From assembly GCA_016204155.1 (NCBI GenBank), contig JACQLG010000063.1:1-43938 (forward strand): 43,938 nt of DNA, written 5' to 3'. Both the position numbers and the translations under genes were made by a program. Positions 6,241-8,235 of the stretch are shown one piece after another. The DNA is from Candidatus Niyogibacteria bacterium. Its GTDB lineage: Bacteria; Patescibacteriota; Minisyncoccia; 1-14-0-10-42-19. The notes below the pieces were generated by a model. The model had not been told where the DNA came from. It ran no database searches and worked only from the letters and a program-made list of their open reading frames with translations. Position 1 is the stretch's first letter, and the number at the start of each line of letters is the position of its first letter.

Positions 6241-8235
6241 ATGAACGCACATATCCGGTATAAAGGATTTGACAGAAAGGAGAGCAAAAAATTGGAGCCG
6301 TTTCTTCCTATCGCGCGTTATTTCGCGCGCTACTGGAGAAGAACAGTCTTTCTTGACGCGCCGGAAGGGAAAGAGATAACTTGGCACACGAAAGATGAAG
6401 ATAAAAGCGTCTATATCCACTTCTTTTCGCGCCATACCCATATTTCCGGTCAATACGGCACGCAAATGATCGGATATACCGAAGAGCTTTTTTGCATTGA
6501 TGTGCCGCGCCATGATCTCGTGATTACCGGAACGGGCGAATACGCAACGGTGGATACGATAGACCTCGGCGCATGCATCCAGGATTGCGAGAATCATGTC
6601 AATGAAACGCTTATATCCCCAGAGGATTGCAAAATTGCAAACGTAATGAAAAATCATATTTTTATTCTGCCCAATATCGCTTACCGGCCATGGGACGGCG
6701 CTTTCACGGTATTCTGGGAGATCTGCGAACAAGCAACGCTTATCTTTGAGAATACTAAAATTATACCGCATTCCATAAAAGATAACCCCGATTATCTCAT
6801 TGAAGTCATGCAGATGGGGCAAAACATCCGTACAAAGACACTGCAGGCAAAAAATGCGTCGAAAGATAATTTTGGAGAATTATGCCGAACAGTGCCCCGC
6901 ATACGCTACCAAAGAACATGCCTTGCGCTTACCAAACAACTCGCCCAAAAAAAGAATTTGGAACTGCATCTTCTTGCTTTAGGTTCGCGCATTTCGGTCG
7001 CGCAAATGCTTCTTGCCGATCCTACATTAAATGAAGAATTTTCCCGCTCTGTCATTCAGGCGCAGTTCGACCAGATACACGCGCTTGAAGGATTTCTCGG
7101 CATGCACATAGAAGGGAGCAAACTCGTATTCTACACCAAGCCCATTCTTCATAGAGAAACTCATTCGGAAGAAGGAAGAAGAGGCGAAAGAAAACCGATC
7201 GGCCAGCATAAAGTCATCATTGATATGCAAAACACCACAAAGACCAATAATACATTTTTGGGAATCAAAATGTGTCCGTGGGGATGGAAAGGCCCGTACG
7301 GCCATCCGGAACAAACGCTGCAGCATGCGTCCGAATCTGATCCAAGAGCTCCATGTTTTGGACCGGAATATTCTCAAAGCATCGGAAAAGTATACCTTGA
7401 CCAAGACTATCCTCTCTTAATAGCAATGCTTTTAAGCTATCTTGACAGTGATAACCGGCTGCCGTATAAGCGAGATGCAAACGACATAAGTAGTATAAGT
7501 AGTGAGCCCTATGAAGAAAAGCCATTCTATACTAACTCTTATTCAAGAGGATCGGCATTGAATGATTATGTACGTCTTACAAGGGAGTTCAGGGGAAAAC
7601 GCAGGGTAGAAAAAATTCACAAGGAACTCGCAGAAGCAGGGAAAGACGAAGAGACGGCGCATGGCGCATATGCAGTAGCGCGAGAAAAATATGCCTTACT
7701 CGAGCACAAAAAAAGAATGCTCAATACTCTCTTGAAAAATATTGAGATTGACATCGAATATGAAAAGATTTTTGATATACCGTCACTGATCGCAACAACC
7801 ATAACTCCAGACTTCATTTGGTGCGTATTCGGCGCAGGAATAGGAACAGGGGTATACGCAAGAGCATTCCTGTCGGATACTATGCGGATCCTCGTCATCC
7901 CGAAAAAAGGGATTGTGCGCGCGTGGCGGACAGACCTTACGAACGAAACAAAAAGCTTTATCGGCCATCGCGCAGACAATAAAGGAGAAATGTCAGTACC
8001 TGCCCATATCTATTTCTATATTGCAAGAGGAGAAATTGGGGAAGCGGTACGCGCCTTGTATGGATACCTCCGCGGGAAAAGCACGATAGAGATAACACAA
8101 ATAGATGAACATGCGACGGAAGAAGCGCTTGACAAGATACTTGCCTATCTCAAAACAGAGGTCTTCGGACCTTTTGAAGACAAGGAAGGCAACGATATGG
8201 ATAACAAACAAGACCAAGCCGAAGAACCTATATGA
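6241..8235 (+). CDS. large orphan protein with a candidate E2/UBC-like core
   Basis: The open frame runs 6121-8235. I prefer the ATG at 6241, preceded by AAGGAGG (6223-6229); ATGs at 6121 and 6178 lack an RBS. The central segment ...KLVFYTKP...HKVIIDMQ...FLGIKMCPWGWKGPYGHPEQTLQHASESDPRAPCFGPEY...YPLLIAMLLSYLDSDN resembles the UBC arrangement: beta-strands, an HPN-like HPE, a Cys, then a hydrophobic helix ending in xDxN. I recognise no other motif. Confidence 0.6.
   Translation: MNAHIRYKGFDRKESKKLEPFLPIARYFARYWRRTVFLDAPEGKEITWHTKDEDKSVYIHFFSRHTHISGQYGTQMIGYTEELFCIDVPRHDLVITGTGEYATVDTIDLGACIQDCENHVNETLISPEDCKIANVMKNHIFILPNIAYRPWDGAFTVFWEICEQATLIFENTKIIPHSIKDNPDYLIEVMQMGQNIRTKTLQAKNASKDNFGELCRTVPRIRYQRTCLALTKQLAQKKNLELHLLALGSRISVAQMLLADPTLNEEFSRSVIQAQFDQIHALEGFLGMHIEGSKLVFYTKPILHRETHSEEGRRGERKPIGQHKVIIDMQNTTKTNNTFLGIKMCPWGWKGPYGHPEQTLQHASESDPRAPCFGPEYSQSIGKVYLDQDYPLLIAMLLSYLDSDNRLPYKRDANDISSISSEPYEEKPFYTNSYSRGSALNDYVRLTREFRGKRRVEKIHKELAEAGKDEETAHGAYAVAREKYALLEHKKRMLNTLLKNIEIDIEYEKIFDIPSLIATTITPDFIWCVFGAGIGTGVYARAFLSDTMRILVIPKKGIVRAWRTDLTNETKSFIGHRADNKGEMSVPAHIYFYIARGEIGEAVRALYGYLRGKSTIEITQIDEHATEEALDKILAYLKTEVFGPFEDKEGNDMDNKQDQAEEPI

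What the first reader, a model, noticed from the sequence alone, without database searches (positions are those of the whole stretch)
7108..7470. Candidate E2/UBC-like catalytic core buried in a 664-aa orphan protein
The segment reads KLVFYTKPILHRE...HKVIIDMQNTTKTNNTFLGIKMCPWGWKGPYGHPEQTLQHASESDPRAPCFGPEYSQSIGKVYLDQDYPLLIAMLLSYLDSDN. It reproduces the order of UBC-fold landmarks: several short beta-strands; an HPN-like tripeptide (HPE, His codon 7303-7305); a Cys a short loop later (7354-7356); then a hydrophobic helix ending in an Asp/Asn-rich turn. Sitting between the AAA ATPase gene and the JAB/E1/Ubl genes is where an E2 would be expected. The flanking regions of about 290 and 250 residues are unassignable; they could carry substrate-recognition or E3-like functions. 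This is pattern recognition only. The HPx-to-Cys spacing of 17 residues is longer than in canonical E2s.
Basis: inference. Interest (0 to 1): 0.65.

Follow-up and report, generated by a model that had tools for sequence, protein, structure and literature searches.

The report
Divergent E2-like cysteine domain, bacterial ubiquitin-like operon
An unannotated 664-residue bacterial protein carries a compact domain with a family-wide conserved histidine and cysteine that most likely carries a ubiquitin-like protein as an E2 enzyme would, inside a conserved five-gene operon of a type I found in no paper searched, which also encodes a Cdc48-like unfolding ATPase.

Summary
Window 7108-7470 reads as quoted, with His at 7303-7305 and Cys at 7354-7356. 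The gene is 6241-8235 (664 aa).

The family is rare and unannotated: 57 cluster representatives among 1.84 billion proteins, with no Pfam, NCBIfam, PADLOC, PHROG or PDB sequence hit. In 52 domain sequences as low as ~17% identical to the window's, Cys is kept in 51, His in 49, the following Gly in 51 and an upstream Thr in all 52. The His-to-Cys spacing is most often 9-11, as in canonical E2s (10). The window's 17 comes from a subfamily insertion.

Seven loci keep the order Cdc48/VAT-like AAA, X, JAMM peptidase, minimal ThiF/UBA5-like E1 with an invariant Cys, and a Ubl ending in GG plus a tail.

E2 homology is only partly shown. Profile-profile alignment to canonical E2s gives 40-75% probability, with helix 1, the strands, His and Cys in register, and beats 200 shuffles. 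A very confident AlphaFold model (pLDDT 94) has no significant PDB match; the best E2 has E 0.68 and TM 0.20-0.30.

My reading: a strongly derived E2-equivalent thioester carrier, apparently mounted on a coiled-coil stalk and followed by an inactive duplicate. It is a new variant of a known kind.

The parts
6241..8235 (+). Gene X, 664 aa: orphan protein carrying the candidate catalytic domain
   Evidence: ORF. The start at 6241 rests on homologue alignments and AAGGAGG at 6222-6228. The family has 57 representatives and no Pfam, NCBIfam, PADLOC, PHROG or PDB sequence hit.
7036..7473 (+). Central E2-like Cys/His domain (X residues 266-411): helix, about 6 strands, His, short helix, Cys, two helices
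   Evidence: AF2 domain model has pLDDT 94.1 and pTM 0.88. It is the most conserved part of the family. hhalign to E2 profiles gives 40-75%. Foldseek finds no significant PDB match but does match uncharacterised viral proteins.
7135..7137 (+). Invariant Thr (X T299) at the end of the second strand
   Evidence: 52 of 52; codon checked.
7303..7305 (+). Conserved His (X H355), aligned to the His of the E2 HPN motif
   Evidence: 49 of 52. Aligned to UBE2D2 H75.
7354..7356 (+). Predicted catalytic Cys (X C372) in the motif P-C-F-G, immediately before a helix
   Evidence: 51 of 52, with one Ser. Aligned to UBE2D2 C85. The helix starts 2 residues later.
6241..6753 (+). N-terminal alpha/beta domain of X, with no conserved Cys and unknown role
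   Evidence: Full-length AF2 model, pLDDT mostly above 85. Conserved motifs. No hhalign similarity to E2 or to the central domain.
6787..7035 (+). Long helix 1 (about 80 residues) leading into the central domain
   Evidence: DSSP of the full-length model. The top Foldseek hits are coiled-coil hairpin proteins such as colicin Ia and SMC.
7537..7773 (+). Long helix 2 (about 70 residues) leading out of the central domain; presumed antiparallel partner of helix 1
   Evidence: The pairing is inferred, because no coordinates were available.
7786..8163 (+). C-terminal domain, probably an inactive duplicate of the central domain that lacks the His and Cys
   Evidence: hhalign of the C domain against the central domain gives probability 49%, 112 columns, and score 29.6 against a maximum of 25.8 in 60 block shuffles.
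4109..6109 (+). Single-domain classical AAA ATPase with a long N-terminal region, Cdc48/VAT-D2-like; first gene of the cassette
   Evidence: Pfam AAA 2e-25. NCBIfam PAN, CDC48 and FtsH models. Best PDB matches are VAT and p97 D2, 7e-48. Conserved upstream of X wherever the contig reaches that far.
8232..8981 (+). JAB/JAMM metallopeptidase with an intact HxHx7Sx2D motif; its start overlaps the X stop by 4 nt
   Evidence: Pfam Prok-JAB. Motif HSHVTGDAVFSDKD. Conserved in all loci.
8978..9628 (+). Minimal E1 (216 aa, ThiF/MoeB/UBA5-like adenylation domain) with an invariant Cys at 9476-9478
   Evidence: Pfam ThiF 6e-18. PADLOC Cap2 E1 region. PDB matches UBA5 and ThiF. Cys167 is invariant in 5 loci.
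9676..9978 (+). Candidate ubiquitin-like protein (100 aa) with an invariant Gly-Gly at 9952-9957 followed by a 6-residue tail
   Evidence: Alignment of 5 orthologues, with GG invariant and tails of 1-6 residues. Weak Rad60-SLD hit. The beta-grasp fold itself was not tested.
2614..3948 (+). Degenerate ClpB-D2-like AAA_2 protein with no intact Walker A seen on reading; linked to the cassette in a second locus
   Evidence: Pfam AAA_2 4e-5. 41% identical (E 1e-101) to the gene next to the Ubl and ClpP in L003. The Walker A statement comes from reading the translation.
10001..10023 (+). Terminator-like hairpin with a T run just after the Ubl gene; probable end of the operon
   Evidence: This is a consensus match only.

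Best explanation
Gene X (6241-8235) most likely encodes the Ubl-conjugating component of a five- to six-gene ubiquitin-like modification operon. Its central domain (7036-7473) is a strongly derived E2-like domain.

**Proposed sequence of events (all steps inferred)**
1. The JAMM peptidase trims the Ubl precursor after its Gly-Gly.
2. The minimal ThiF/UBA5-like E1 adenylates the Ubl C-terminus and takes it onto its invariant Cys.
3. The Ubl is passed by transthioesterification to Cys372 of X (7354-7356). This Cys sits at the N-terminus of a helix, next to the conserved His355 and Thr299.
4. X then transfers the Ubl to target lysines.

No separate E3 is encoded. The N-terminal domain, the two long helices and the inactive C-terminal copy of the domain would therefore supply partner binding and substrate choice, as in an E2/E3 hybrid.

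The Cdc48/VAT-like AAA ATPase encoded just upstream probably acts on the modified proteins by unfolding or extracting them. The JAMM enzyme could also remove the tag.

**Shown:** the sequence features, their conservation, the gene order, the confident fold model and the moderate profile similarity to E2.

**Inferred:** every catalytic step, the coiled-coil hairpin geometry and the link to proteolysis.
For: - **Conservation.** Cys is in 51 of 52 sequences, His in 49, Gly two residues after the Cys in 51 and Thr in 52, across sequences as low as ~17% identical to the window's. No other Cys of X is conserved.
- **Spacing.** The His-Cys spacing has its mode at 9-11, against 10 in UBE2D2.
- **Profile similarity.** hhalign of the domain against canonical E2 profiles gives probability 74.6% (P 2.7e-5), 57.9% and 40% in three set-ups, always in the same register from helix 1 to the catalytic Cys. 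With a relaxed threshold it extends into E2 helix 2, which aligns with LLSYLDSDNRLP.
- **Controls.** The score is 31.6. Controls gave maxima of 21.0 and 23.4 in 100 column and 100 block shuffles, and 14 for reversed profiles. Other parts of X score 10-15 against E2.
- **Secondary structure.** The order of elements in a pLDDT-94 model fits E2.
- **Gene order.** Seven loci keep AAA, X, JAB, E1, Ubl in that order, with overlapping stop and start codons in the window.
- **Partners.** The E1 has an invariant Cys and the Ubl an invariant GG plus a tail. The JAB motif is intact.
- **No other candidate.** I saw no other candidate thioester carrier in the cassette.
Against: - Foldseek of the confident domain model finds no PDB chain below E 0.3. 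The E2 hits (1yf9) have TM of only 0.20-0.30. The PDB copy runs to April 2026; whether it holds bacterial E2-like structures was not checked.
- No HMMER hit to UQ_con, Prok-E2_A-E, Cap2 or BilB models.
- The Asn of HPN is absent.
- The helix starts directly after the Cys, unlike canonical E2s, which is more typical of nucleophile-at-helix-N-terminus hydrolases.
- hhalign probabilities are moderate and depend on the profile used, falling to 11% with the 29-sequence sub-alignment.
- Minimal E1s of the SAMP/UbaA type can conjugate without an E2 (general knowledge).
- There is no experimental evidence of any kind.
Confidence: 0.6

Rival explanations
1. The central domain is a cysteine hydrolase (a Ubl-specific isopeptidase or processing protease) or a transglutaminase-like enzyme that uses a Cys-His pair. 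It is not a thioester carrier. Conjugation would then be done by the E1 alone.
For: - The Cys lies at the N-terminus of a helix, preceded by a conserved His on the sheet. Circularly permuted papain-like enzymes have this arrangement (general knowledge).
- There is no significant structural match to E2s.
- The E1 is of the minimal ThiF/UBA5 type. Relatives of this type (archaeal UbaA) work without an E2 (general knowledge).
Against: - Foldseek also finds no papain-like, NlpC/P60, transglutaminase or other Cys-hydrolase fold.
- The operon already encodes an intact JAMM peptidase for processing and removal.
- The only profile-profile signal is to E2, with His and Cys in register.
- A His-Cys spacing of 9-11 residues is E2-like.
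Confidence: 0.15
2. X is a non-catalytic scaffold or adaptor, or the main conjugation target. It would link the AAA ATPase with E1, JAB and Ubl. The conserved Cys and His would be structural or ligand-binding.
For: - X has long helices and three globular domains.
- No known enzyme fold was detected.
- The N- and C-terminal domains have no conserved nucleophile.
Against: A single Cys, a single His, one Thr and one Gly conserved in sequences as low as ~17% identical to the window's is the pattern of an active site. It is not the pattern of a metal site, which needs 3-4 ligands, nor of a hydrophobic core. The one sequence without the Cys has Ser there, another nucleophile, and it also lacks the His.
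Confidence: 0.1
3. The cassette is an anti-phage defence system of the Bil or CBASS kind. X would be its E2, tagging phage proteins, and the AAA ATPase would be a sensor or effector. This rival concerns the biological role, not the chemistry of X.
For: - Characterised bacterial Ubl operons (type II CBASS, Bil) are antiphage, and Bub is suspected to be (PMC11601596).
- The E1 and JAB hit PADLOC Cap2 and JAB models, and the AAA hits IetA and TRIP13 models.
- The distribution is sparse: 57 representatives, and 1 of 185,579 GTDB species.
- The fold of the domain recurs in uncharacterised phage proteins.
Against: - The window neighbourhood is housekeeping: FtsH, tRNAs, ParB, RelA/SpoT, TopA, DprA, MurC-like, RNase J.
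- The recurrent neighbours are proteolysis genes: a ClpB-like gene and FtsH in the window, LonB in L002, and ClpP plus a degenerate AAA_2 gene in L003.
- X and the Ubl hit no PADLOC model, and no defence regulator was seen.
Confidence: 0.25

Closest known systems
Canonical UBC/E2 ubiquitin-conjugating enzymes (Pfam UQ_con PF00179, e.g. UBE2D2)
   Same: - The order of elements is the same: helix 1, beta-meander, conserved His, short helix, catalytic Cys, then a hydrophobic helix ending in an Asp/Asn-rich turn.
- The modal His-Cys spacing is 9-11, against 10 in UBE2D2.
- The profile-profile alignment is in register.
- It is encoded next to an E1 and a Ubl.
   Different: - No HMMER match, and Foldseek TM of only 0.20-0.30.
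- About 6 strands rather than 4.
- A helix begins right after the Cys.
- E2 helices 3 and 4 are absent.
- No HPN Asn.
- An invariant Thr, and a C-F-G motif.
- Embedded in a 664-aa protein between two helices of about 70-80 residues.
Bil systems (BilA Ubl, BilB E2, BilC JAB, BilD E1), types I and II
   Same: Both have separate genes for a Ubl, a JAB/JAMM peptidase, an E1 and a Cys-dependent conjugating protein. Neither encodes an E3, so the E2-like protein is expected to choose targets itself (PMC11601596).
   Different: - BilD is a large IAD-AAD-CYS E1. Here the E1 is a single 216-aa adenylation domain, with only a weak BilD hit (0.006).
- X does not match BilB models.
- Bil has no AAA ATPase.
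- The genomic context here is housekeeping and proteolysis, not defence.
Type II CBASS Cap2 (E2-E1 fusion) with Cap3 (JAB)
   Same: The E1 region gives the best PADLOC hits, to Cap2 models at 3e-10. A JAB partner is present.
   Different: There is no CD-NTase and no E2-E1 fusion. A free Ubl is present. X has no similarity to the Cap2 E2 region.
Bub (6E/DUF6527) operons
   Same: Both are diverged bacterial Ubl pathways with non-canonical E2s. One member of the X family has Ser in place of the Cys, which recalls the Bub oxyester chemistry.
   Different: There is no DUF6527 protease and no Ubl-E2 or JAB-E1 fusion. Both the E1 and X keep their cysteines.
Archaeal and eukaryotic Ub/SAMP - Cdc48/VAT - Rpn11 (JAMM) axis
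   Same: Both combine a Ubl ending in GG, a JAMM peptidase and a Cdc48/VAT-type AAA unfoldase. The best PDB hits for the AAA are VAT and p97 D2, at 7e-48.
   Different: - The AAA has a single AAA domain, and its N-terminal region of about 340 residues was not analysed further.
- No proteasome genes were found. The neighbours are FtsH, Lon and ClpP instead.
- The host is bacterial. One locus lies in a Saccharibacteria MAG.
Large E2/E3 hybrid enzymes (UBE2O, BIRC6)
   Same: Both have an E2-type catalytic core embedded in a much larger polypeptide whose extra domains select substrates, with no separate E3 (general knowledge).
   Different: This is an architectural analogy only. No sequence or structural relationship was tested or found.

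Membership tests
UBC/E2 superfamily | UBC fold: N-terminal helix, four-stranded antiparallel meander and a crossing helix 2, recognisable by structure comparison | tested here: inconclusive
UBC/E2 superfamily | Conserved catalytic Cys in the loop after the last strand | tested here: met
   Cys in 51 of 52 sequences, with one Ser. Aligned to UBE2D2 C85.
UBC/E2 superfamily | HPN motif about 10 residues upstream of the Cys | tested here: inconclusive
   His in 49 of 52. Pro follows in 27 of 49. Asn occupies the third position in 1 of 49. The modal spacing is 9-11. Several accepted bacterial E2-like families also lack parts of HPN (PMC1779556).
UBC/E2 superfamily | Significant sequence-profile match to UQ_con or Prok-E2 models | tested here: not met
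   No Pfam hit at E<=0.1 for the window protein or for 29 relatives. No NCBIfam or PADLOC hit.
UBC/E2 superfamily | Profile-profile (HMM-HMM) similarity to E2 profiles | tested here: inconclusive
   hhalign probability 74.6%, 57.9%, 40% or 11%, depending on the alignments used. The register is always the same, and the score is above all 200 shuffles. The E2 profile was small. HHpred against PDB70 and Pfam could not be run.
UBC/E2 superfamily | Accepts the Ubl from a cognate E1 as a thioester | not testable with these tools
   Only gene linkage with an E1 and a Ubl was shown, in 7 loci.
Bil system | BilB-type E2 and BilD-type E1 (IAD-AAD-CYS) | tested here: not met
   X has no PADLOC BilB hit. 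The E1 is 216 aa with one adenylation domain, and its BilD hit is E 0.0059 over about 110 residues. The architecture is taken from PMC11601596.
Type II CBASS | Cap2 E2-E1 fusion next to a CD-NTase and an effector | tested here: not met
   Only the E1 adenylation region matches Cap2 models. No CD-NTase turned up among the window proteins scanned; loci L001-L006 were checked only in part.
Bub (6E/DUF6527) | DUF6527 serine protease, fused Ubl-E2 or E2-E1, and E1/E2 lacking cysteines | tested here: not met
   No DUF6527 hit. The genes are separate, and the cysteines are conserved.

The most novel reading that the evidence does not exclude
The cassette (Cdc48/VAT-like AAA, stalk-mounted E2/E3-hybrid X, JAMM, minimal E1, GG-Ubl, plus a linked degenerate ClpB-like protein) is a housekeeping protein-tagging and unfolding pathway of ultra-small, CPR-type bacteria. 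It would be a bacterial analogue of the ubiquitin-Cdc48-proteasome axis that feeds FtsH, Lon or ClpP. Its conjugating domain would be a separate, previously unrecognised branch of the E2-like fold, or a convergent fold, that is also used by a family of uncharacterised phage proteins.
Probability: 0.25. Interest if true: 0.85.

Novelty: new variant of a known kind. Interest (0 to 1): 0.66.

Why it matters
Bacterial ubiquitination-like pathways shown or proposed to conjugate proteins fall into a few families: type II CBASS, Bil and Bub. Those that have been characterised are antiphage systems.

This cassette is a further type, and it differs in several ways:
- It has a minimal E1.
- Its conjugating enzyme is invisible to current family models and has no recognisable relative in the PDB.
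- It is permanently coupled to a Cdc48/VAT-like unfoldase.
- It sits among housekeeping and protease genes.

If the chemistry is confirmed, it would widen the known structural range of E2-type enzymes. It would also offer a bacterial test case for how Ubl tagging became coupled to AAA unfoldases, which bears on the origin of the ubiquitin-proteasome system.

The conserved Cys, His and Thr give immediate mutational targets.

Tried and rejected
**Searches that found nothing for X**
- HMMER against Pfam, NCBIfam, PADLOC and PHROGs.
- phmmer and hmmsearch against PDB sequences, which gave only noise such as coiled-coil and LRR hits.

**Structure searches**
- Foldseek with the full-length model returned only coiled-coil proteins and very weak glutamine-amidotransferase hits (TM about 0.23), which I rejected as noise.
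- Foldseek with the domain model against the PDB gave no significant match. The START-like, SnoaL-like, Crl and YedK hits all have E above 0.3 and TM below 0.3, and I rejected them.

**Word-indexed protein search**
- It recovered only 1 and then 3 relatives, so its recall for this family is poor.
- My last search of this kind, with an E2 alignment, returned only near-identical UBE2D, UBE2A/B and UBC9 proteins and added little diversity.

**Phage origin**
- No tblastn match in 50,697 phage records and no IMG/VR relative.

**Alternative starts for X**
- I rejected the ATG at 6121 (704 aa) and the gene-caller start at 6178 (685 aa) in favour of 6241.

**Other candidates for the E2 role**
- The N-terminal domain of X shows no E2 similarity and has no conserved Cys.
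- ORF 10127-10630 has no counterpart in the other loci.

**Literature**
- Four full-text searches found no description of this gene set.
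Full report
**1. The observation**

His is at 7303-7305, followed by Pro. Cys is at 7354-7356, followed by Phe-Gly.

The mechanical ORF runs 6121-8235 (704 aa).
- Homologues with an intact N-terminus mostly begin at the aligned Met.
- AAGGAGG lies at 6222-6228.
- Positions 6121-6152 form a 13-bp hairpin followed by a T run.

I number X from that Met, so the key residues are T299, H355 and C372.

**2. Context**

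On the + strand the genes are tightly packed:
- A classical AAA ATPase, 4109-6109.
- X, 6241-8235.
- A JAB/JAMM peptidase, 8232-8981, whose start overlaps the X stop by 4 nt. Its HxHx7Sx2D motif is intact.
- A 216-aa ThiF-type E1, 8978-9628, also overlapping by 4 nt.
- A 100-aa protein, 9676-9978, ending in ...VGGPNIVLS.
- A terminator-like hairpin at 10001-10023.

The closest solved relatives of the AAA are the D2 domains of archaeal VAT and of p97/Cdc48, at 7e-48 (NCBIfam PAN, CDC48 and FtsH models). For the E1 they are UBA5, ThiF, TcdA and MoeB.

The rest of the window is ordinary bacterial chromosome. It holds FtsH, tRNAs, ParB, RelA/SpoT, TopA, DprA, a Mur ligase, RNase J, an aminoacyl-tRNA synthetase, GlmM and YchF. 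It is not a defence island.

**3. The family**

X has no hit in Pfam, NCBIfam, PADLOC, PHROGs or among PDB sequences. The word-indexed search found a single relative.

An exhaustive HMMER profile search of 1.84 billion cluster representatives found 57 proteins, 21 of them at E<1e-30. Most are 560-660 aa long. None of 29 members hits any Pfam family.

The central segment is the best conserved part. A domain HMM recovers it in 53 of the 57.

In 52 aligned domain sequences:

| Residue (X numbering) | Conserved in |
|---|---|
| T299 | 52/52 |
| C372 | 51/52 (one Ser) |
| G374 | 51/52 |
| H355 | 49/52 |
| F373 | 42/52 |

Identity to the window protein falls to about 17%. None of the other nine cysteines of X is conserved.

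The His-to-Cys spacing ranges from 7 to 19. It is 9-11 in 27 of 49 sequences and 17 in 10 of 49. The window's long spacing is therefore a subfamily insertion, and the commonest spacing equals that of canonical E2s (H75 to C85 in UBE2D2).

**4. Conserved gene order**

Six further loci carry a relative of X:
- Four assemblies of public sequencing runs or metagenomes.
- One Hainich groundwater 0.1-um fraction contig.
- One contig of a Candidatus Saccharibacteria MAG.

All show AAA, X, JAB, E1, Ubl in that order, as far as each contig reaches.

The E1 has an invariant Cys (window 9476-9478) in the segment PCV...MGGQFA. The Ubl has an invariant GG followed by 1-6 extra residues. A tail after the GG implies processing, presumably by the JAB enzyme.

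A degenerate ClpB-D2-like protein (window 2614-3948; I saw no intact Walker A in the translation) is 41% identical to a gene that lies next to the Ubl gene and ClpP in L003. L002 has a LonB-like protease two genes downstream. The window has FtsH and an intact ClpB-D2-like ATPase nearby.

**5. Structure**

With the 29-sequence alignment, AlphaFold2 gives a confident full-length model, with pLDDT 85.7 and pTM 0.70. Its parts, in X numbering (the model's own residue numbers, which follow P0001, are 21 higher), are:
- An N-terminal alpha/beta domain (about residues 1-171).
- A long helical segment ending in a helix of about 55 residues (183-259).
- The central domain.
- A helix of about 70 residues (433-500).
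- A C-terminal alpha/beta domain (516-641).

The best full-length Foldseek hits are coiled-coil hairpin proteins such as colicin Ia and SMC, none significant. This fits the central domain sitting at the tip of an antiparallel stalk. That geometry is inferred, because no coordinates were available.

The isolated domain, modelled with 44 sequences, gives pLDDT 94.1 and pTM 0.88. Its order of elements is: helix, strands (about six), His, short helix, Cys, helix starting two residues after the Cys, and a second helix that ends in the conserved LxxLDSDxR turn.

**6. Is it an E2?**

*Against:*
- Foldseek of this model against 350,542 PDB chains finds nothing below E 0.3. A Leishmania E2 (1yf9) appears at ranks 8 and 11, but with E 0.68-0.82 and TM 0.20-0.30.
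- HMMER-level searches find no E2 family.
- Only the His of HPN is conserved.

*For:*
- Profile-profile comparison of the domain alignment with six canonical E2s gives probability 74.6% and P 2.7e-5 over 85 columns.
- Helix 1, the strands, the His (on H75) and the Cys (on C85) are all in register.
- In my own runs the score was 31.6. Controls gave maxima of 21.0 and 23.4 in 100 column shuffles and 100 block shuffles, and 14 for reversed profiles.
- A rebuilt E2 profile gave 40% in the same register. With a relaxed threshold the alignment extended to E2 helix 2, opposite the LLSYLDSDNRLP helix.
- The other parts of X score 10-15 against E2.
- A shallower 29-sequence sub-alignment gave only 11%.

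I read this as moderate evidence for a remote, strongly remodelled E2-like domain. It is short of proof.

**7. Two further observations**

The C-terminal domain aligns with the central domain over 112 columns. Probability is 49%, and the score is 29.6 against a maximum of 25.8 in 60 block shuffles. The C-terminal copy lacks the His and Cys. This looks like an internal duplication with an inactive copy, which recalls E2/UEV pairs.

Foldseek against BFVD finds eight uncharacterised viral proteins of 420-1146 aa. Probabilities are 0.63-1.00, TM normalised to the query is 0.37-0.50, and E runs from 2.5e-3 to 0.1. No sequence-level relative exists in phage records, IMG/VR or PHROGs. The fold therefore exists elsewhere, unannotated.

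**8. Mechanism proposed**

1. JAB trims the Ubl after the GG.
2. The E1 adenylates the Ubl and takes it onto its Cys.
3. The Ubl is passed by transthioesterification to C372 of X.
4. X transfers it to substrates. Its non-catalytic domains do the work of an E3.
5. The Cdc48/VAT-like AAA processes the conjugates.
6. JAB can reverse the modification.

All steps are inferred from gene content and conservation.

The rivals are a Cys hydrolase or transglutaminase-like enzyme, a scaffold or target, and, for the biological role, an antiphage system. They are weighed in the Rival explanations section.

**9. Comparison with known systems**

The known bacterial Ubl conjugation operons are type II CBASS (Cap2/Cap3), Bil types I and II, and Bub types I and II (PMC11601596; earlier classes 6a-6e in PMC1779556).

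This cassette fits none of them:
- There is no CD-NTase and no E2-E1 fusion.
- There is no IAD-AAD-CYS E1.
- There is no DUF6527 protein.
- It has an obligatory AAA ATPase and a 560-660-aa conjugating protein.

Four literature searches found no description of it.

**10. Verdict**

A conserved Cys/His active site in the right operon position is solid. Membership of the UBC fold is plausible but unproven.

I rate it a new variant of a known kind, with interest 0.66.

Noticed in passing
window 2614-3948 (+) and 1164-2495 (-); L003 6785-8164 (-): Two divergently arranged ClpB-D2-like genes lie just upstream of the cassette. One has an intact Walker A and B on reading the translation (443 aa). The other is degenerate, with no recognisable Walker A. 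The degenerate one is 41% identical (E 1e-101) to a gene next to the Ubl gene and ClpP in L003, so it may be a sixth component of the system.
   Followed up: partly
L002 7142-9667; L003 8306-8893; window 10775-12625: ATP-dependent protease genes recur next to the cassette: LonB-like in a Saccharibacteria MAG, ClpP in L003 and FtsH in the window. This hints at a link to proteolysis. There are too few long contigs for statistics.
   Followed up: partly
BFVD entries A0A516LAI7, A0A516M3P8, A0A6J5NL39, A0A516ML27, A0A516L9P6, A0A516KZW4, A0A516LW79, A0A516LHL3: Uncharacterised viral proteins of 420-1146 aa share the fold of the central domain. Probabilities are 0.63-1.0 and TM to the query is 0.37-0.50, although no sequence similarity is detectable. 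Their sequences could not be retrieved, so I could not check for the Cys and His.
   Followed up: partly
P0033 (family member): One family member has Ser instead of the catalytic Cys and also lacks the His. It is either an inactive paralogue or an oxyester-type variant like the Bub E2s.
   Followed up: no
window 6121-6152: A 13-bp hairpin followed by a T run lies in the 131-nt gap between the AAA gene and X. It may be an internal attenuator or partial terminator that uncouples expression of the AAA and X. A promoter-like site lies at 6209-6236.
   Followed up: no
window 9606-9634: This is the best sigma-70-like match in the region (TTGAAA, 17 nt, TG, TATGAT; 10 of 12). It lies inside the end of the E1 gene, just upstream of the Ubl gene, and may give the Ubl its own promoter.
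   Followed up: no
window 10702-10774 (-): A tRNA-Ile with anticodon TAT, which I recall being uncommon in bacteria (not checked here), lies immediately upstream of ftsH.
   Followed up: no
window 20173-20255 and 31982-32065: tRNA-Leu genes (CAA and CAG) overlap the 5' ends of the mechanical ParB (20180) and RNase J (31988) ORFs. The real starts of those genes must therefore lie further downstream.
   Followed up: no
window 27819-28475 (-): An IS200-like Y1 transposase gene lies among housekeeping genes.
   Followed up: no
window 12666-14336 (-): A 556-aa protein has a C-terminal 2H phosphoesterase (LigT / 2'-5' RNA ligase) domain and an N-terminal region of about 370 residues with no family match.
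   Followed up: no
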